A DNA stretch of 64,000 bases, taken from the sequence record MZ501108; one strand, written 5' to 3'. The stretch's first letter is position 1; every line of letters begins with the position of its first letter. A model generated the notes under the pieces. It was not told the DNA's origin, searched no databases, and worked only from the letters and a program-made list of their open reading frames with translations. This document shows, one piece after another, positions 2,352-26,199 of this stretch. The DNA comes from Escherichia phage TrudiGerster. A program made the translations under genes and the position numbers.

Positions 2352-3568
2352 TGGGTTTAAAAAGCTGGATTACTGAAAAGCTAAATCCGGGTCAACGTAT
2401 TATAAGAGACATGGAACCAGTTAGTCATCGTACTAACCGAAAGCCCTATACCACAGGTCAAGCCTACAGTAAGATTGAGATTCTCAACCGAACTGCTAAC
2501 ATGGTCATTGATAGTGCGGCTGAGTGTTCTTATACTGTCGGAGCAAAATATAATATTGTCACGTATGCTAATGGCGTCAAGGCAAAGACTCTAGACACTC
2601 TCTTAAATGTACGACCTAATCCATTCATGGATATAAGCACATTCCGTAGACTTGTAGTCACTGACCTACTTTTTGAAGGTTGTGCGTATATCTATTGGGA
2701 TGGCACAGCACTTTACCATGTCCCGGCTGCTCTTATGCAGGTCGAGGCAGATGCCAATAAGTTTATCAAAAAATTTATATTTAATAATCAGATAGACTAT
2801 CGCGTAGATGAGATTATCTTTATAAAGGATAACAGTTACGTGTGTGGCACAAACTCTCAAATTTCTGGACAATCTCGTGTTGCTACTGTTATTGACTCTC
2901 TTGAGAAGCGTTCTAAAATGCTCAACTTTAAAGAGAAGTTCCTCGATAACGGCACCGTGATTGGTCTTATTCTTGAGACGGATGAAATCCTGAACAAGAA
3001 ATTGCGTGAGCGTAAACAAGAAGAATTACAACTCGATTATAATCCTAGTACGGGTCAGTCTACTGTCCTGATTCTAGATGGTGGTATGAAAGCAAAACCG
3101 TACTCCCAAATATCCTCATTTAAAGATCTAGACTTTAAAGACGACATTGAACGTTTCGATAAGAGCGTCTGTCTGGCTTTTGGTGTTCCGCAAGTTCTGA
3201 TTGATGGTGGTAATAACGCTAATATTCGACCAAACATCGAATTGTTCTACTACATGACAATCGTTCCTATGCTGAACAAACTGACTAGTTCTCTTACTTT
3301 CTTCTTTGGTTACAAGATTACTCCTGATACTAAGGAAGTAGTTGCGTTAACTCCAGATAAGGAAGCTGAGGCTAAACATTTAACCTCTCTGGTTAATAAC
3401 GGTATCATGACTGGTAACGAAGCTCGACAAGAGCTGAACCTTGAACCTTTAGATGATGAGCAGATGAATAAGATTCGTATTCCTGCTAACGTTGCTGGTT
3501 CTGCTACAGGTGTATCTGGTCAAGAAGGTGGTAGACCGCAAGGTTCCGCCGAAGGGGATGAAGAATGA
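2351..3568 (+). CDS. portal protein
   Basis: 405 aa ORF directly downstream of terminase and upstream of the head genes; size and position typical of T5-like portal. Confidence 0.8.
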   Translation: MGLKSWITEKLNPGQRIIRDMEPVSHRTNRKPYTTGQAYSKIEILNRTANMVIDSAAECSYTVGAKYNIVTYANGVKAKTLDTLLNVRPNPFMDISTFRRLVVTDLLFEGCAYIYWDGTALYHVPAALMQVEADANKFIKKFIFNNQIDYRVDEIIFIKDNSYVCGTNSQISGQSRVATVIDSLEKRSKMLNFKEKFLDNGTVIGLILETDEILNKKLRERKQEELQLDYNPSTGQSTVLILDGGMKAKPYSQISSFKDLDFKDDIERFDKSVCLAFGVPQVLIDGGNNANIRPNIELFYYMTIVPMLNKLTSSLTFFFGYKITPDTKEVVALTPDKEAEAKHLTSLVNNGIMTGNEARQELNLEPLDDEQMNKIRIPANVAGSATGVSGQEGGRPQGSAEGDEE

Positions 3569-4047
3569 TTGATTATGATGGTCTGAAGGCCATTTTTGGT
3601 GAGAAGTTACCAGAATCTCATATCTTCTTTGCTACGGTTGCAGCACACAAGTTTGTTCCGAACTACACTACTCTACGTAAAGAGTTCGGAATGACCACTG
3701 CACATACCAACCGCAAGGTTTGGAATAAGTTCAAAGAAGCTTACGAAGTTACTGCTCCGGTTGTCCCGGCTCTAGCTTTCACGAAGAATCTGGCTAAAAC
3801 TCTAGCTATTGAAGAAGGCACAGCAATTAATCTAGGTGTTACGGTTACTGGTGGTACTGCACCATATACGTATGCTTGGACTAAAGATGGTTCTCCACTG
3901 AGTGGTGCTACCGGCCCTAACTTCAATAAAGCAACCGCGGCTGCAGGAGATGCAGGTACTTACAAAGTCGTAGTAACGGATAGTAAATCTACCGCCATTA
4001 CTTCTAACGAGTGTGTAACTACTGTTAATCCTGCTGCTGGAGGCTAA
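3565..4047 (+). CDS. head decoration protein with Ig-like domain (pb10-like)
   Basis: 160 aa; C-terminal Ig-like motif (TVTGGTAPYTYAWTKDGSPL...GTYKVVVTD); lies between portal and protease. Confidence 0.65.
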   Translation: MIDYDGLKAIFGEKLPESHIFFATVAAHKFVPNYTTLRKEFGMTTAHTNRKVWNKFKEAYEVTAPVVPALAFTKNLAKTLAIEEGTAINLGVTVTGGTAPYTYAWTKDGSPLSGATGPNFNKATAAAGDAGTYKVVVTDSKSTAITSNECVTTVNPAAGG

Positions 4048-20464: not shown

Positions 20465-20887
20465 ATGAGTACAGAAAATAGAGTTATTGATATTGTTGTT
20501 GATGAGAAAGTACCTTATGGTCTTATTATGCAGTTTATGGATGTTGATGATAGTGTCTATCCTCCAACTGAAGTTCCTGTAAATTTAGAGGGCTACTCAC
20601 TTCGTGGAACAATTAAATCTAGCCTTGATGAAAACGCCGAGATTCTAGCAAATTTTAAGGCTCGTGTAGTGGATGCCTCTCAGGGAGCCGCAGCGATTAG
20701 TCTTACTGTTGAAGATGTTACTAACATTGGTAACAAAGCATCTAAAGAACGTGATAAGTATAACCCAAGACAACGTTTCGCTGGTTATTACGACATTCTA
20801 ATGACTCGTGATGTTATTGGCTCAGAAGTCAGCTCATTCCGTATCATGGAAGGTAAGATCTACATCAGCGATGGAGTAACTCAATAA
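20465..20887 (+). CDS. putative collar / fibre attachment protein (p132-like)
   Basis: 140 aa ORF immediately upstream of the L-shaped fibre gene. Confidence 0.45.
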
Positions 20888-23800
20888 TGGCGATCAGAAC
20901 TAAAATTATTGTACAGCAGATTCTGAACATAGATGACACTACAACTACTGCTAGTAAGTATCCTAAGTATACAGTAGTTTTAGGTAACTCTATTAGTTCT
21001 ATTACTGCTGGTGAGCTGACTGCAGCTGTGGAATCATCCGCAGCTTCAGCTGCTGCTGCTAAAGATTCTGAAATTGCAGCAAAATCATCCGAAACTAATG
21101 CTAGAGACTCAGAAAATAGAGCCGCTATCTATGCTGATTCTTCTGAAGCTTCTGCTACTCAATCAGCTACTTCTGCTACAGAATCTGAGAGACAGGCTGA
21201 ATTATCTAAGGCTAGCGCTGAAGAATCCGCTGCATCTGCTACAGAAGCTGGTACACACAAAGATGCGGCTCAGTTAGCTGCTCAAAATGCTGAGAGAAGT
21301 AGAGAACTAGCCGAACAAGCTAAAACTGCTGCTCAACAAGCCCAGGTAGCCGCGGAGACTGCTAAGACGGGAGCTGAAACAGCTAAAGAAGGAGCAGATG
21401 CTGCTGCGACAACGGCTGGAGAACATGCTGCTGCTGCTAAACAATCAGAACTAAATGCTAAAGTTTCCGAAACTAATGCTGCTGGTTCTGCTACCGAAGC
21501 TGGTGATAAAGCTATCGATGCTACTGCTGAGGCAGACCGTGCTAAAGCAGAAGCCGATCGTGCATCCCAGGTTGTTGATGGTAAACTTGATAAAGTAGAC
21601 ATCTCTGGTTTTATCAAAGTTTATAAGACAAAAGCAGAAGCTGATGCGGATGTTGCAAACCGTGTTCTAGATGAAAAGATCTTAGTTTGGAATCAAACTG
21701 AGTCAAAATATGGTTGGTATAAAGTTGCAGGTACTACTAAAGCTCCTGTCCTAGAGTTAGTAGAAACTGAACAGAAACTTGTATCAATCAATAACGTTCA
21801 CGCTGATGATGCTGGTAACGTACAGATTACACTTCCAGGCGGTAACCCTTCTCTATGGTTAGGTGAAGTTACTTGGTTCCCTTATGATAAAGATTCTGGT
21901 GTTGGCTACCCTGGTGTTCTGCCTGCTGATGGACGTGAAGTACTTCGCGTAGACTATCCAGATACTTGGGAAGCTATCGAAGCTGGTCTGATCCCCTCTG
22001 TTACTGAGACTGAATGGCAGGCGGGTGCAATTCTTTACTTCTCCACTGGTGATGGTTCTACAACGTTCCGTTTACCAGATATGATGCAAGGGCAAGCCTT
22101 CCGTGCACCAACTAAAGGCGAAGAAGATGCTGGCGTTATTAAAGATCAGATTCCTTATGTTGTGACAGTTAATGGTATCTCTCCAGATGATATAACTGGT
22201 AACGTTGAAATTGATACCTCACTACAAGGTACTGTTAATATTAATCAAGGAGGTACTGGTGCAACAACTAAAGAAGACGCCCGTATAGCCCTCGAGCTAT
22301 ATAGTACTACGGAAGTTGATTCTGCTTTAGCAGATAAGGCCGATATTGCTACCACGTATACTAAGATGGAAGTTGATTCTGCTTTAGCAGATAAGGCCGA
22401 TATTGCTACCACGTATACTAAGATGGAAGTTGATTCTGCTTTAGCAGACGCTAAAACTCAGTCAGATACTAACTACTTATTAAAAGCAAATAACTTGAGT
22501 GATCTCGGAGACCGTACTGCTGCATGGCTTAACGTGCGACCACTTGGCTCTACTCCACTGGCGTCAGACCCTGTAAGTGACTATGACGCCACAACTAAGC
22601 GCTGGGTGCAGAACTTAATCGGCGCAGGGACTGTAGGCCCGACAATGAACGGGGTCATGAATTATGGTGTTGGGGATTTCCACCTACGGGATAGCAGGGC
22701 GTATATTCAACCTTATGAGGTATTATCAGACGGTCAATTGCTTAATCGTGCAGCATGGCCTGAATTGTGGGCATATGCTCAGATGCTATCCCCTATCAGT
22801 GATGCTGAGTGGCTTAGTTCTGCGGAAAAACGTGGGCGTTATTCCACCGGTGATGGGTCAACAACCTTCCGTGTTCCAGACCGAAACGGTGTGCAGCCTG
22901 GGTCAACGACTAGTCTTTTTGGACGAGGGGATGGTGGTACTTCATCAGAGAACGGTAGGGTTTATGAAGCTGCTGCACCTAATATATTGGGGACATTTGC
23001 AAATGATACCAGCGGAAAGGTGTGGATGCCTGCTCCAAAATCAGTAACGGGATCTTTTGGTTATGCCCCAACAACAGAAATGACATTTTTACCTAATGAT
23101 GGTTCCTTTGTAAAAGTCAATAACAATGCTACTACGACCTTTAATGCGAGATTGAGCGACGAGGTATATGGTAAATACGAAGTTAAAAATCAGATACTGC
23201 CCAAAAGTTTTGTAGGTGTTTGGGTTATTCGCGCATCCGGAGGTTTTACTGCTGCAAATACGTCATGGTCTGTGATCAATGCGGATGCTGTGGTTCCTGG
23301 AGCTAATGTTACTACTTATGGTGGTGATATGTGGTCAACATACCAAGTGGCTGGTGCTGATTATGTCAAATTAGGCTATCGTGCGAAAGTCACTATTGAT
23401 GGTGCGTCTACAGGAGAAATCCGTCTAATGGATAGCAGGGTAGGGGGTACTAGCAAAACCTGGGAAATGCCTACTGTCAGTGGTACGCTTCTTAGTAGTG
23501 CGGATATAGGAACTTCAGGAGCTAAAATCCCTTTACTTAACGTTCAGAACATGTGGACAAAAACTCAGGTTTTCCAAGAATCAGGTGTTGTCACTCAATC
23601 GGTGCTGCCATCGGATGCTACTTTAAATGATCACGGCGGTCCTCATTTTGTTTCATATGTTATAACTGATAATCAAATTCGTTTAGGCGCTAAATTCTTT
23701 TCTAGTTTTGATTCTACGAATTTAAGAAGAGCCGTTGTCCAAGTCACAACAGATAACGATGCTTCCGCCCAGATATTTGCATTTGATCAGAGAGGGGATA

Positions 23801-24285
23801 TTTCATCTGCGAAAGGTATTGTACAGTGGAGTGGCTCTGATACCCGTATTAAGACTAACTTTGAACCTGTGCAAAGTGGGTCGTGGGAGCGTATTTCTAA
23901 GATTAGTATCTGTGAATATACCTATAAGGTAAACCCTACTCCTCAGCGTGGGTATCTCGCTCAGCAAATGAGGGAAATAGACCCGTTATATGTCTTTGAA
24001 GGGGGTAGGTCTATTGATGATAACGGCAAAGAGTTTGAAATACTAAACGTGAACGATAAAGCTGTTACAGCAGATTTAATCATAGTTGTGCAGCAAATGC
24101 AGGAAAAACTAGCTGTGCTTGAAGAGCATAATAAAAAGATTATCCCCTTAGAGGAAGAAATAGCTACTTTAAAAGATGAAGTTAATACTCTTAAAAAGTT
24201 ACTTGTAGAGATTAATCAATCATTAGCTATCACTAGTCGTGTCTCAGCTTTAGAGTCCGAAGTTAATGAATTAAAACGTCCTTAA
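20887..24285 (+). CDS. ltfA: L-shaped tail fibre protein with C-terminal intramolecular chaperone (S74-like) domain
   Basis: 1132 aa; Ala/Ser/Glu-rich coiled N-terminal third; internal perfect tandem repeat; C-terminal SDTRIKTNFEP...YTYKVNP...LAQQMREIDPLYVFEG plus coiled-coil tail typical of autocleaving chaperone domains. Confidence 0.82.
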   Translation: MAIRTKIIVQQILNIDDTTTTASKYPKYTVVLGNSISSITAGELTAAVESSAASAAAAKDSEIAAKSSETNARDSENRAAIYADSSEASATQSATSATESERQAELSKASAEESAASATEAGTHKDAAQLAAQNAERSRELAEQAKTAAQQAQVAAETAKTGAETAKEGADAAATTAGEHAAAAKQSELNAKVSETNAAGSATEAGDKAIDATAEADRAKAEADRASQVVDGKLDKVDISGFIKVYKTKAEADADVANRVLDEKILVWNQTESKYGWYKVAGTTKAPVLELVETEQKLVSINNVHADDAGNVQITLPGGNPSLWLGEVTWFPYDKDSGVGYPGVLPADGREVLRVDYPDTWEAIEAGLIPSVTETEWQAGAILYFSTGDGSTTFRLPDMMQGQAFRAPTKGEEDAGVIKDQIPYVVTVNGISPDDITGNVEIDTSLQGTVNINQGGTGATTKEDARIALELYSTTEVDSALADKADIATTYTKMEVDSALADKADIATTYTKMEVDSALADAKTQSDTNYLLKANNLSDLGDRTAAWLNVRPLGSTPLASDPVSDYDATTKRWVQNLIGAGTVGPTMNGVMNYGVGDFHLRDSRAYIQPYEVLSDGQLLNRAAWPELWAYAQMLSPISDAEWLSSAEKRGRYSTGDGSTTFRVPDRNGVQPGSTTSLFGRGDGGTSSENGRVYEAAAPNILGTFANDTSGKVWMPAPKSVTGSFGYAPTTEMTFLPNDGSFVKVNNNATTTFNARLSDEVYGKYEVKNQILPKSFVGVWVIRASGGFTAANTSWSVINADAVVPGANVTTYGGDMWSTYQVAGADYVKLGYRAKVTIDGASTGEIRLMDSRVGGTSKTWEMPTVSGTLLSSADIGTSGAKIPLLNVQNMWTKTQVFQESGVVTQSVLPSDATLNDHGGPHFVSYVITDNQIRLGAKFFSSFDSTNLRRAVVQVTTDNDASAQIFAFDQRGDISSAKGIVQWSGSDTRIKTNFEPVQSGSWERISKISICEYTYKVNPTPQRGYLAQQMREIDPLYVFEGGRSIDDNGKEFEILNVNDKAVTADLIIVVQQMQEKLAVLEEHNKKIIPLEEEIATLKDEVNTLKKLLVEINQSLAITSRVSALESEVNELKRP
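22312..22448 (+). repeat. 57-bp perfect in-frame tandem repeat (2.4 copies) inside fibre gene
   Basis: unit gaagttgattctgctttagcagataaggccgatattgctaccacgtatactaagatg at 22312-22368 and 22369-22425, partial third copy to ~22448; encodes EVDSALADKADIATTYTKM. Confidence 0.9.
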
Positions 24286-24397: not shown

Positions 24398-26164
24398 ATG
24401 TCACGTAATTTAATGCCTAAATCCGGCGCAATGGCGCCTTACGTTGTAGTTAACAGAGATGCTGCGGTTGCTGGTGTTTTCTCTGTTGATGGAGAGGCTG
24501 GTGCTGTTGTACTAACTTCCAAATACCTACAAATTACAAAGTATACTACTGATAAGACAGCTACTGATGCTGCGATCAAGAGTATTAATGATTCAATTGG
24601 TAACATCAATACTGCACTTGGTGGTATCAACACTACTCTAGATACTAAGGCTGCAAAAGGTGCTAATAACGATATTATAGAACTAAACGCACTGACTAAG
24701 GCTATTACTATTGCTCAGGGAGGTACTGGTGCTACTACCTTACCAGACGCAAAAACAGCTTTACAAGTAGATCGTTTAAGGCAGCAGGATAATGGTACTT
24801 TTGTAACCTCTCCAGATGGGAAGTACTCTTTATTTATCTATAATAGTGGAGATTTTGGACTGATTAATAGTTCTACTGCTGCAGTCCAAGCTATGAAAGT
24901 GCAGTTCGGAGGAACAGGGGCTTATGACGCAAAAACAGCAAGAAAGAACCTAGATGTTCCTGTAGGAGCTACAGCTGTAAATATTCCCCCTAATAGTAAC
25001 GTTCTTGCATATATTGCTACTATGGGGCAGAGTGGATACTACTCTTCAGGTGAGCTAATCACATTTGGTCCTCCTGTACAAGAAGGTTGGTGGACTTTTA
25101 ACTTCCACTGTCATGGTGTAGATATCAATGGTGTTGCACAGTATGGGGTTCTTAAGGCAACCGGGATATCAGGTAGTTCTTGGATCAATATTCTCAGCGG
25201 ATCAGGTAATTGGACAGGCTGGCAAGAGCAGTTTAATGTACAGTCTACAATCTCTATTGCTAATGGAGGTACTGGTGGTAATACATATGGTCAAGCTAGA
25301 GAGAATCTAGGTATTACACGTTTTGTTCAAGGTTCCTCCTCAACAGTAGTACAGTCTGCTGATGGGTTGCATAGCTTCAGTCTTGCGGATACCGGAGAAT
25401 GGGGTGTTACTAAGAAAGGGCAGCCAGGTTGGATTACTTTAGGGATCGCCCAAGGAGGTACTGGTGGGGGAGATATTAATACTGCTCGTAACAACCTTAA
25501 TCTAGGAACTGGTCAGCAGGCAGTATTTGACTCAGTATATTTGCCTAACTATAAGGCTGCTGATTGGTCTTATGGGGTAGGTTGTAGAATCAATGGTGGT
25601 GCATTATCTAGTTGGTCTTCTAGGCCTGTAGCTGTTAGTGTTGATGGTAATACTACTGATGTGGCTGTAGGTATTGCTAAAGTTACTATTCCAGGAAAAG
25701 GATACGCTTGTAACGTTGATGGCATACTTTGGAACGACGGAACCTCTGAGCTAGATATAATGACTGGTGCTTCTAGATTCTATTTCCATAGTGATGGTGG
25801 TGGTAGAGCATCTAACTGGATTAACGTCTCAGATATTAGAACTAAATCTAATTTAGCTAAGATCGAAAATCCATTAAGTAAGATCAATTTACTATGTGGT
25901 TATACTTATCAGAAACGAACTAACATTGATGATCCTGAAAGCAAAGATTATTCTATGGAAGCAGGTATTATTGCTCAGGATCTCCAGAAAGTATTGCCTG
26001 AAGCTGTATACCAAGTAAGTCAGGACGGTTACCTTGGTGTTAGTTATGGTGGTGTTTCTGCCCTTCTAGTTAGCGCTGTTAATGAGCTTAGTGGGATTGT
26101 TGAGCAACAGAAGCAAGAAATTGATGAACTCAAGGAATTGGTAAAACAACTACTTGCTAAGTAA
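24398..26164 (+). CDS. ltfB: second tail fibre protein with C-terminal intramolecular chaperone domain (LtfB-like branch fibre)
   Basis: 588 aa; repeated QGGTGA/ANGGTGG/AQGGTGG motifs; C-terminal SDIRTKSNLAKIENPLSKINLLCGYTYQKR...GIIAQDLQKVLPEAVYQ plus coiled coil resembles the ltfA C-terminus. Confidence 0.72.
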   Translation: MSRNLMPKSGAMAPYVVVNRDAAVAGVFSVDGEAGAVVLTSKYLQITKYTTDKTATDAAIKSINDSIGNINTALGGINTTLDTKAAKGANNDIIELNALTKAITIAQGGTGATTLPDAKTALQVDRLRQQDNGTFVTSPDGKYSLFIYNSGDFGLINSSTAAVQAMKVQFGGTGAYDAKTARKNLDVPVGATAVNIPPNSNVLAYIATMGQSGYYSSGELITFGPPVQEGWWTFNFHCHGVDINGVAQYGVLKATGISGSSWINILSGSGNWTGWQEQFNVQSTISIANGGTGGNTYGQARENLGITRFVQGSSSTVVQSADGLHSFSLADTGEWGVTKKGQPGWITLGIAQGGTGGGDINTARNNLNLGTGQQAVFDSVYLPNYKAADWSYGVGCRINGGALSSWSSRPVAVSVDGNTTDVAVGIAKVTIPGKGYACNVDGILWNDGTSELDIMTGASRFYFHSDGGGRASNWINVSDIRTKSNLAKIENPLSKINLLCGYTYQKRTNIDDPESKDYSMEAGIIAQDLQKVLPEAVYQVSQDGYLGVSYGGVSALLVSAVNELSGIVEQQKQEIDELKELVKQLLAK

Positions 26165-26199
26165 AAGAAAACCCCAGTGGATTGTCCACTGGGGTTTAT
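26163..26199. terminator. bidirectional terminator at late/early module boundary
   Basis: hairpin ccccagtgg-attgt-ccactgggg flanked by A-run upstream and T-run downstream; sits between convergent gene blocks. Confidence 0.75.

What the first reader, a model, noticed from the sequence alone, without database searches (positions are those of the whole stretch)
22312..22448. Perfect 57-bp in-frame tandem repeat inside the long tail fibre gene
Two complete and one partial copy of a 57-bp unit with zero mismatches, encoding a 19-residue repeat (EVDSALADKADIATTYTKM). Perfect identity implies a very recent duplication and makes the locus prone to copy-number change, which would alter fibre shaft length.
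Basis: seen in the sequence. Interest (0 to 1): 0.4.

Follow-up and report, generated by a model that had tools for sequence, protein, structure and literature searches.

The report
Known 19-residue tail-fibre shaft repeat
The perfect 57-bp in-frame repeat is real, but it is the same copy-number-unstable 19-amino-acid repeat already described in the side tail fibre (LtfA) of the sister phages DT57C and DT571/2, most likely a rod-forming structural module.

Summary
Window 22311-22448 holds 2.4 copies of a 57-bp unit with no mismatches, in frame in ORF 20887-24285. It is the only strong tandem repeat in the 64-kb window. The window is Escherichia phage TrudiGerster, a T5-like phage from the BASEL collection, and the gene is its lateral tail fibre LtfA.

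The feature is not new. Golomidova et al. 2016 described this 19-aa block at the same position and copy number in DT57C and DT571/2. They also isolated a lab mutant that had gained exactly one unit.

"Very recent duplication" is only partly right:
- Four relatives share the three-unit layout, and phiR2-01 has it with diverged copies.
- TrudiGerster and DT571/2 each have perfect copies, yet they differ at the same two synonymous sites in every copy. That indicates repeated homogenisation or contraction and re-expansion.

Three further points:
- The homologous interval in other T5-like fibres carries independent duplications of 39, 67, 75 and 90 bp, and unduplicated forms also exist.
- A profile of the repeat matches the solved alpha/beta coiled coil of streptococcal phage hyaluronidase HylP1. 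This suggests two beta-layers per unit.
- The motif class occurs in about 1,300 protein clusters and has no matching Pfam or NCBIfam model.

The feature is ordinary and of low to moderate interest.

The parts
20465..20887 (+). ltfC, the collar / fibre-attachment protein (140 aa)
   Evidence: Pfam LtfC PF23926, 57.4 bits against a cut-off of 27. Same position as ltfC in DT57C.
20887..24285 (+). ltfA, the lateral (L-shaped) tail fibre protein A (1132 aa). It is 100% identical to QXV85090.1 of Escherichia phage TrudiGerster.
   Evidence: Matches PDB 8hqz_d (DT57C LtfA) over residues 1-847. DNA is 84% identical to DT57C and DT571/2 ltfA over the first 59% of the gene.
21580..22242 (+). Region related to the kuravirus fibre proteins (phiEco32 gp14 / SU10 gp12), LtfA aa 232-452. 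This is the proposed LtfB docking or joint domain and lies just upstream of the repeat.
   Evidence: phmmer hit to 7z47_D residues 248-471, E = 7e-47. 35% identity to LAMP gp14. The docking role was proposed in PMC4728585. It is not resolved in any structure.
22087..22461 (.). Patch of about 375 bp that is 95-100% identical to DT57C and DT571/2. It ends at the 3' edge of the array, and identity falls to 69-83% immediately downstream, marking a mosaic junction.
   Evidence: Sliding 75-bp identity profile.
22249..22299 (+). Upstream anchor motif GGTGATTKEDARIALEL (aa 455-471), conserved across T5-like fibres that carry this module.
22300..22470 (+). Three 19-aa units in register (aa 472-528): YSTTEVDSALADKADIATT / YTKMEVDSALADKADIATT / YTKMEVDSALADAKTQSDT.
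   Evidence: the repeat finder family D2.
22311..22448 (+). The perfect 57-bp x 2.4 tandem repeat, which is the finding itself.
   Evidence: TRF 100% matches, score 276. Three exact 23-mers.
22492..22542 (+). Downstream anchor motif NLSDLGDRTAAWLNVRP (aa 536-552), where the distal fibre module begins.
23836..23985 (+). Peptidase_S74 intramolecular chaperone domain of LtfA (aa 984-1033).
   Evidence: Pfam PF13884, 35.1 bits against a cut-off of 22.
24398..26164 (+). ltfB-like second fibre gene (588 aa). It has the LtfB N-terminal docking segment and its own Peptidase_S74 domain.
   Evidence: Residues 1-46 are nearly identical to DT57C LtfB, with 55% identity over 223 aa (E = 3e-59). Pfam PF13884, 48.3 bits.
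26169..26197 (.). Terminator-like hairpin with 13 base pairs, scoring on both strands, that closes the fibre operon.
   Evidence: This is a consensus match only.

Best explanation
The array is the TrudiGerster copy of the 19-residue tandem block already described in LtfA of DT57C and DT571/2. It lies between the domain proposed to dock the second fibre, LtfB, and the distal receptor-binding part of LtfA.

Structure (inferred). In the LtfA trimer, each unit most likely forms one module of an alpha/beta coiled coil:
- TYT forms a beta-layer.
- KMEVDSALAD forms a 10-residue helical segment.
- KAD forms a second beta-layer.
- IAT forms a 3-residue connector.
This matches the solved N-terminal stalk of streptococcal phage hyaluronidase HylP1. 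Because a unit begins and ends in the same structural register, whole units can be added or removed without breaking the rod. Only the length of the spacer changes, by roughly 2-3 nm per unit (my estimate).

DNA mechanism (inferred). The 57-bp direct repeats misalign during replication or recombination. This yields gains or losses of one unit and also homogenises the copies. That explains why the copies are perfect in this phage and in DT571/2 even though the three-unit layout is shared and old.

Shown here or in the cited papers:
- The repeat, its reading frame and its position.
- Its orthology to the published block.
- A gain of one unit in a lab mutant.
- Lineage-specific substitutions present in every copy.
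- Independent duplications at the same site in other phages.
- The sequence-profile match to the HylP1 beta-layer segment.

Inferred:
- The fold of the LtfA repeat.
- The slippage or unequal-recombination mechanism.
- Any functional effect of spacer length.
For: 1. Identity and position. TRF and translation confirm the repeat. The window's LtfA is QXV85090.1 of TrudiGerster. PMC4728585 describes the block VDSALADKADIATTYTKME at aa 478-542, directly after the phiEco32 gp14-like region, as two full copies plus one incomplete copy.

2. Copy-number lability. DT571/2-ABF has 3.4 perfect copies against 2.4 in its parent.

3. Concerted evolution. The window and DT571/2 differ at 5 array positions. 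These are unit positions 2 and 29 in every copy, and both changes are synonymous. There are 0 differences between copies within either genome. DT57C still has differences between copies at unit positions 2, 54 and 55. In 2,000,000 simulations, five independent random substitutions never left the copies identical. phiR2-01 keeps three diverged units.

4. Hotspot. Other phages carry different repeats at the homologous interval: SP3 75 bp x 2.3, Kenya-K38 67 bp x 2.0, Kenya-K42 39 bp x 3.3 and mar003J3 90 bp x 2.3. Unduplicated relatives are P0028, P0031 and P0032. Junctions were reconstructed against the unduplicated L023. My detector flagged tandem repeats only in proteins that carry this module, 5 of 10, and in none of the other 110 LtfA homologues.

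5. Structure. The repeat profile A3 hits HylP1/HylP2 (2c3f, 2dp5, 3eka, 2yvv) at E about 3e-6. It also hits the GCN4-fusion constructs 7o9v, 7oaa and 7oac. Hartmann et al. 2016 assign HylP1 residues 69-99 as abc-bbb-efghijkabc-bbb-efg-bbb-efghijk, which has the same 3+10+3+3 = 19 spacing.

6. Generality. 1,305 cluster representatives match the three-unit segment. The dominant motif spacing is 19 aa, with a median of 7 and a maximum of 23 motif matches per protein.
Against: - No experimental structure covers this part of LtfA. Only the N-terminal part was built in 8hqz, and only 90 residues of SU10 gp12 were built.
- The AlphaFold2 monomer model was low confidence, with mean pLDDT 43.5.
- The HylP1 match is a short, compositionally simple segment. 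E = 3e-6 is good but rests on about 46 residues.
- Homogenisation cannot be distinguished here from repeated contraction to 1.4 copies followed by re-expansion.
- No natural 1.4-copy or 3.4-copy variant of this particular unit was found.
- The copy number in the deposited genome could not be checked against reads.
- A functional effect of spacer length is untested. The 2016 suggestion that the extra copy was compensatory is explicitly speculative.
Confidence: 0.75

Rival explanations
1. This is a one-off, very recent duplication specific to this phage. An ancestor with 1.4 copies duplicated one unit shortly before isolation, and the copies have not yet had time to diverge.
For: There are no differences between copies. 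A single unequal exchange between the two 23-bp direct repeats of a 1.4-copy ancestor would produce exactly this 2.4-copy pattern (inference). In other lineages, unduplicated and duplicated forms coexist.
Against: DT57C, DT530, DT571/2 and phiR2-01 have the same copy number at the same position. This model would need at least three parallel duplications to the same end state. DT57C's copies already differ from each other, so the array predates the DT57C/DT571/2 split. No 1.4-copy form of this unit was found in any collection.
Confidence: 0.12
2. This is an assembly or sequencing artefact. The true genome has a different number of units, or only one.
For: Short-read assemblers cannot traverse this repeat. 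Two independent Logan contigs from a TrudiGerster-like phage both end exactly 30 nt inside the last unit, as expected for k = 31.
Against: An identical architecture is present in independently sequenced phages, including loci sequenced separately (KU236381, KU159289). A collapsed de Bruijn traversal would give 1.4 copies rather than 2.4 (inference). The array is only 138 bp, so ordinary 150-250-nt reads could span it.
Confidence: 0.04
3. The perfect identity is maintained by selection on the nucleotide sequence itself, for example a regulatory or RNA element or a programmed variation system such as a diversity-generating retroelement or a phase-variation locus. On this view it is not a by-product of repeat dynamics in a structural protein.
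For: Synonymous sites are identical between copies. The surrounding patch of about 375 bp is unusually conserved relative to DT57C and DT571/2.
Against: - The unit length is a multiple of three, so copy changes do not switch the frame.
- No other copy of the unit that could act as a template exists anywhere in the 64-kb window.
- Promoter-like and terminator-like hits in the locus are at chance level, and none lies in the array.
- Synonymous sites do differ between lineages, so the nucleotide sequence is not fixed.
- Different unit sequences occupy the site in other phages.
Confidence: 0.03

Closest known systems
19-aa tandem motif block of LtfA in T5-like phages DT57C and DT571/2 (Golomidova et al. 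2016, Viruses 8:26, PMC4728585)
   Same: - The motif is the same (VDSALADKADIATTYTKME).
- The position is the same, directly after the phiEco32 gp14-like region at about aa 472-528.
- The copy number is the same, two full copies plus one partial.
- The gene context is the same: ltfC, ltfA, ltfB.
- The array DNA is 96% identical.
- Copy gain has been documented in the ABF mutant.
   Different: - The host genome differs. TrudiGerster's structural genes are closest, at about 92%, to Salmonella phages RN29 and S124, whereas DT57C and DT571/2 are Tequintavirus.
- Two synonymous substitutions are fixed in all copies.
- The distal half of LtfA and the LtfB body are different alleles.
N-terminal alpha/beta coiled coil of streptococcal prophage hyaluronidase HylP1/HylP2 (PDB 2C3F, 2DP5; beta-layer analysis in Hartmann et al. 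2016, eLife, PMC4786415)
   Same: The pattern is the same: x-Y/A-T then K-x-E, a helix of about 10 residues, K-A-D, three residues, then x-Y-T, giving a 19-residue spacing. The repeat profile matches at E about 3e-6. Both are trimeric phage fibre proteins. The published assignment gives two internal beta-layers in hexad spacing.
   Different: HylP1 has essentially one such period, not a tandem array. Apart from that segment the proteins are unrelated: HylP1 continues into a catalytic triple-stranded beta-helix. The fold of the LtfA repeat is inferred and has not been solved.
Uncurated 19-residue YTKxEVDxALxxKAD repeat of phage fibre-like proteins (PHROG 5004 / 10305)
   Same: The consensus and the 19-aa period are the same. 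There are 1,305 cluster representatives at E<=1e-3, and arrays reach up to 23 motif matches. Some co-occur with tail-tip and tail-repeat domains.
   Different: Those proteins are not LtfA homologues outside the repeat. The window's array is short, with 3 units. No matching Pfam or NCBIfam model was found for the class.
Length-variable segmented coiled coils of fibrous phage and adhesin proteins, such as T4 fibritin gpwac and the stalks of trimeric autotransporter adhesins
   Same: The principle is the same. A trimeric rod is built of repeatable segments whose number varies between relatives without loss of fold. This rests on my own knowledge; gpwac is cited as a segmented coiled coil in PMC10713586, and adhesin stalks with beta-layers are described in PMC4786415.
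   Different: The unit sequences, periods and biological roles differ. No homology was tested or is claimed.

Membership tests
LtfA 19-aa tandem block (DT57C / DT571/2 type) | Repeat motif VDSALADKADIATTYTKME with a 19-aa period | tested here: met
   The amino-acid unit is the same as in DT571/2, in both full copies.
LtfA 19-aa tandem block (DT57C / DT571/2 type) | Located directly after the phiEco32 gp14-like region of LtfA, at about aa 472-542 | tested here: met
   The units lie at aa 472-528. The kuravirus-like region at aa 232-452 matches 7z47_D.
LtfA 19-aa tandem block (DT57C / DT571/2 type) | Two complete copies plus one incomplete copy in wild type | tested here: met
   TRF gives 2.4 copies in the window, DT571/2 and DT57C (2.5 copies).
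LtfA 19-aa tandem block (DT57C / DT571/2 type) | Host protein is an LtfA: a T5-Ltf-like N-terminus, a C-terminal Peptidase_S74 domain, ltfC upstream and ltfB downstream | tested here: met
Alpha/beta coiled coil with beta-layers (Hartmann et al. 2016) | Sequence signature: three-residue beta-layer motifs (such as KAD, or x-A/Y-T followed by K) that interrupt coiled-coil segments at hexad or 13-residue spacings | tested here: met
   The unit parses as TYT | KMEVDSALAD | KAD | IAT. The profile aligns to HylP1 LAT-KVETAQKLQQ-KAD-KET-VYT, which has a published register.
Alpha/beta coiled coil with beta-layers (Hartmann et al. 2016) | Parallel homotrimer in which the beta-layer residues adopt beta conformation and form a triangular plane | not testable with these tools
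   Only monomer prediction was available, and it gave pLDDT 43.5. The LtfA N-terminus is a trimeric coiled coil in the DT57C cryo-EM structure, but the repeat region was not resolved.
Pfam PTR 'Phage tail repeat like' (PF12789) | Score above the gathering threshold of 27 bits | tested here: not met
   There is no PTR hit for LtfA or for the repeat segment, even at E<=10. In other proteins PTR matches a different neighbouring motif, GHTH..DITDLDKY.
Peptidase_S74 fibre proteins (T5 pb1 / endosialidase chaperone type) | C-terminal intramolecular chaperone domain above the Pfam threshold | tested here: met
   PF13884 scores 35.1 bits against a cut-off of 22 at aa 984-1033.
Phase-variable contingency repeat | Copy-number change shifts the reading frame or promoter spacing to switch expression | tested here: not met
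   57 = 3 x 19, so unit gain or loss keeps the frame. The one out-of-frame case is a different 67-bp duplication in Kenya-K38.
Diversity-generating retroelement target | A second (template) copy of the repeat elsewhere, together with a reverse transcriptase | tested here: not met
   No further copy of the unit exists in the 64-kb window with up to 3 mismatches. A reverse transcriptase was not searched for specifically.

The most novel reading that the evidence does not exclude
The interval between the GGTGATT...ALE motif and the NLSDL...WLNVRP motif of T5-like LtfA may be a dedicated length-tuning spacer. It appears to be built from alpha/beta coiled-coil modules. Independent duplications of different units (13, 19, 25 and 30 aa) repeatedly lengthen it from about 58-62 aa to a convergent 81-88 aa. 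Its length may set the geometry between the LtfB branch point and the LtfA receptor-binding tip, and so affect adsorption or host range. More broadly, the 19-residue unit may define a large phage-fibre repeat family (about 1,300 clusters) that has no curated model and carries two beta-layers per unit.
Probability: 0.3. Interest if true: 0.45.

Novelty: already known. Interest (0 to 1): 0.25.

Why it matters
The finding mainly adds one more genome to a repeat that was described, and seen to expand, in 2016.

The wider points matter modestly for phage engineering and annotation:
- The repeat marks a tolerant, register-preserving position where fibre length can probably be changed in 19-aa steps.
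- It sits at a mosaic junction between the conserved proximal part and the exchangeable distal part of the fibre, which makes it a natural splice point for host-range swaps.
- It breaks short-read assemblies. Copy number in deposited T5-like genomes should be treated with care, and split fibre genes such as the one in Kenya-K38 may be artefacts or real knock-outs.
- The link to beta-layer coiled coils gives a testable structural model for an unresolved part of the branched T5-like fibre.

Tried and rejected
- Exact-pattern scans for the unit. A 47-mer and a 20-mer in IMG/VR returned only DT571/2 itself. The metagenome and genome collections gave only single chance matches. No natural copy-number variants of this exact unit were found.
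- First protein search, with the 197-aa segment. It returned mostly short downstream fragments and generic repeat proteins, not LtfA relatives. The full-length query worked.
- AlphaFold2 monomer of aa 415-641 with a 7-sequence alignment. Mean pLDDT was 43.5 and the repeat was helical at low confidence. It was not used for a fold search.
- Direct phmmer of the repeat segment against the PDB. It found only DT57C LtfA, whose repeat region is unmodelled. The profile search succeeded.
- Pfam, NCBIfam and PTR. There is no family for the repeat, and PTR is a different motif.
- Structure papers. The RBPseg atlas, the SU10 paper and the DT57C paper give no resolved structure of this region.
- Phase-variation, retroelement and regulatory-element readings. 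All were rejected.
- Link between spacer length and a second fibre gene. I looked for a correlation and found none. The short form L023 has an LtfB-like gene, while the long form SP3 has none.
Full report
**Observation.** Tandem Repeats Finder reports one array at window 22311-22448: period 57, 2.4 copies, 100% matches, no indels, score 276. It lies in ORF 20887-24285 (+, 1132 aa). Position 22312 is the first base of codon 476, so the repeat is in frame. It encodes EVDSALADKADIATTYTKM twice, followed by EVDSALAD. In register there are three 19-aa units at 22300-22470: YSTT..., YTKM... and YTKM..., the last diverging after EVDSALAD. The 23-mer that starts each unit occurs three times and nowhere else in the window, even with 3 mismatches, and 100 shuffles gave 0 matches. 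No other tandem repeat in the 64-kb window scores 80 or more.

**What the gene and genome are.** The protein is 100% identical to the lateral tail fibre protein QXV85090.1 of Escherichia phage TrudiGerster. TrudiGerster is a T5-like phage; its structural genes are about 92% identical to Salmonella phages RN29 and S124.
- The gene is preceded by ltfC (Pfam LtfC).
- It is followed by a 588-aa fibre gene whose first 46 residues nearly match DT57C LtfB. Both fibre proteins end in a Peptidase_S74 chaperone domain.
- LtfA residues 1-847 align to the DT57C LtfA chain in PDB 8hqz. Residues 232-452 align to the SU10 (kuravirus) long tail fibre protein 7z47_D.
- The locus therefore has the branched LtfA plus LtfB organisation described for DT57C and DT571/2.

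**Already described.** Golomidova et al. 2016 (PMC4728585) report a 'block of tandemly repeated 19 a.a. motifs' (VDSALADKADIATTYTKME) at LtfA positions 478-542. It lies directly after the phiEco32 gp14-like region that they propose contacts LtfB. Wild type has two complete copies and one incomplete copy. Their mutant DT571/2-ABF had gained one copy, which they speculated was compensatory. I verified this in the deposited sequences: 2.4 perfect copies in DT571/2, 2.5 copies at 95% in DT57C, and 3.4 perfect copies in ABF. The window's array is the orthologue of that block, with the same motif, position and copy number and 96% DNA identity.

**Recent duplication or homogenisation?**
- The three-unit layout is shared by TrudiGerster, DT57C, DT530 and DT571/2. 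Yersinia phage phiR2-01 has it with copies too diverged for TRF to detect.
- The window and DT571/2 differ at five array positions. These fall on only two unit positions (2 and 29), are present in every copy and are both synonymous. Copies within each genome are identical.
- DT57C, a very close relative of DT571/2, still has differences between its copies.
- In 2,000,000 simulations, five independent substitutions never left the copies identical.
- The simplest reading is concerted evolution by unequal recombination or slippage between the 57-bp repeats, or cycles of contraction and re-expansion. A single recent event unique to this phage fits less well.
- The array also lies at the 3' edge of a patch of about 375 bp (22087-22461) that is 95-100% identical to DT57C and DT571/2. 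Identity drops to 69-83% just downstream. It therefore sits at a mosaic junction.

**A duplication hotspot.** The interval between the conserved GGTGATT...ALE motif and the NLSDL..WLNVRP motif carries different tandem repeats in other T5-like fibres.

| Phage or protein | Repeat at the site | Distance between the two motifs |
|---|---|---|
| P0028 | none beyond its two GGTGA-motif units | 58 aa |
| P0031, P0032 | none | 61 aa |
| Window, DT57C, DT571/2, phiR2-01 (and DT530, same register) | 57 bp x 2.4-2.5 (phiR2-01: three diverged units) | 81 aa |
| SP3 | 75 bp x 2.3 (92%) | 86 aa (by eye) |
| Kenya-K36/K42 | 39 bp x 3.3 (95%) | 87 aa |
| mar003J3 (YZU-L1 protein) | 90 bp x 2.3 (96%) | 88 aa |
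| Kenya-K38 | 67 bp x 2.0 (100%, out of frame) | not applicable |
| DT571/2-ABF lab mutant | 57 bp x 3.4 | 100 aa |

Distances are, except SP3.
- Comparison with the unduplicated locus L023 shows separate events that use short homologies. Kenya-K42, for example, derives from an SP3-like state by a 36-bp deletion between two TATATACT octamers followed by further duplication.
- Among 120 LtfA homologues, my detector flagged tandem repeats only in proteins that carry this module: 5 of 10, against 0 of 110.
- Spacer length does not track the presence of a second fibre gene.

**What the unit probably is.**
- No family model covers it.
- No solved structure includes it.
- A monomer AlphaFold2 model was unreliable, with pLDDT 43.5.
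- An exhaustive phmmer search with the three-unit segment found 1,305 cluster representatives at E<=1e-3. Among the 148 best hits analysed, 19 aa was by far the commonest motif spacing, with a median of 7 and a maximum of 23 motif matches per protein. Some carry phage tail-tip or tail-repeat domains.
- A profile of 24 such arrays (A3) matched the streptococcal phage hyaluronidases HylP1/HylP2 at E about 3e-6 (residues 55-100 or 82-127, depending on entry). It also matched the GCN4-fusion constructs 7o9v, 7oaa and 7oac.
- Hartmann et al. 2016 (PMC4786415) assign HylP1 69-IDGLATKVETAQKLQQKADKETVYTKAESKQE-99 as an alpha/beta coiled coil with beta-layers at LAT, KAD and VYT. Each beta-layer moves the chain path by 120 degrees around the trimer axis.
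- The LtfA unit parses the same way: TYT | KMEVDSALAD | KAD | IAT, which is 3+10+3+3 = 19. The 13-aa unit of Kenya-K42 (VYT + QTEIDDKLAD) would be one beta-layer plus one helical segment.
- By inference, each unit is a self-contained rod module. This would explain why whole-unit gains and losses are tolerated.

**Assembly caveat.** Two Logan contigs from a TrudiGerster-like phage are 98% identical to the window over 6.6 kb downstream. Both begin exactly 30 nt inside the last unit, which is the expected break for a k = 31 assembler. This gives a further independent carrier of the array. It also shows that short-read assemblies can fail here. The window's 2.4 copies agree with independently sequenced relatives, but I could not check reads.

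**Verdict.** The feature is real and correctly located. It is ordinary in kind and already published for sister phages, including its instability. Three additions from this work go beyond the papers I read and the searches I ran. They are of modest specialist interest:
- the signature of concerted evolution;
- the multi-lineage hotspot;
- the proposed beta-layer coiled-coil identity of the unit.

Noticed in passing
L008 (Salmonella phage Kenya-K38, OQ291035.1) 3445-3580; Kenya-K45 also matched in two pieces: A perfect 67-bp x 2.0 duplication at the homologous site is out of frame. It splits the fibre gene into two annotated CDSs. The junction runs through a GTA/TA microhomology and is 2 bp short of an in-frame 69-bp event. 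It could be a real knock-out or a dinucleotide sequencing error.
   Followed up: partly
window 22087-22461: A patch of about 375 bp is 95-100% identical to DT57C and DT571/2. The rest of ltfA is 61-96% identical upstream and 69-83% identical just downstream. This suggests a recent exchange, or a recombination boundary at the array.
   Followed up: partly
window 24398-26164 (ltfB-like) compared with L001 6126-6255 (DT57C ltfB): The N-terminal part of LtfB contains a heptad-like 'INxxIGxIN' segment, which has 21-bp tandem repeats in DT57C. The window's LtfB is shorter there by 8 aa and 14 aa. This is a second length-variable repeat segment in the same fibre system.
   Followed up: no
window 22232-22280, 24702-24750, 25254-25284, 25445-25466: The 'I(A/N)QGGTGA' motif recurs at the DNA level in ltfA and three times in ltfB (76-91% identity). 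In mar003J3 and YZU-L1 this motif is itself the 30-aa tandem unit. These dispersed repeats could mediate ltfA-ltfB recombination of the kind that produced the fused LtfAB mutants.
   Followed up: no
P0148-P0295 (search hits; not in the window): A 19-residue repeat, YTKxEVDxALxxKAD, occurs in about 1,300 protein clusters, with up to 23 motif matches per protein. No matching Pfam or NCBIfam model was found; it is covered only by PHROG 5004 (unknown function) and PHROG 10305. It appears to be an uncurated alpha/beta coiled-coil fibre repeat family.
   Followed up: partly
L021 / L022 (Logan SRR33371453, SRR33371454): A TrudiGerster-like phage is 98% identical over 6.6 kb from ltfB onward. Its LtfA distal part is a different allele: only 88% identity over 256 bp after the array, and no alignment beyond that. 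The conserved repeat and the variable distal module fit module swapping at this junction.
   Followed up: partly
window 26169-26197: A perfect 13-bp-stem hairpin with T-runs on both sides lies between the convergent fibre operon and the minus-strand genes. It looks like a bidirectional terminator.
   Followed up: no
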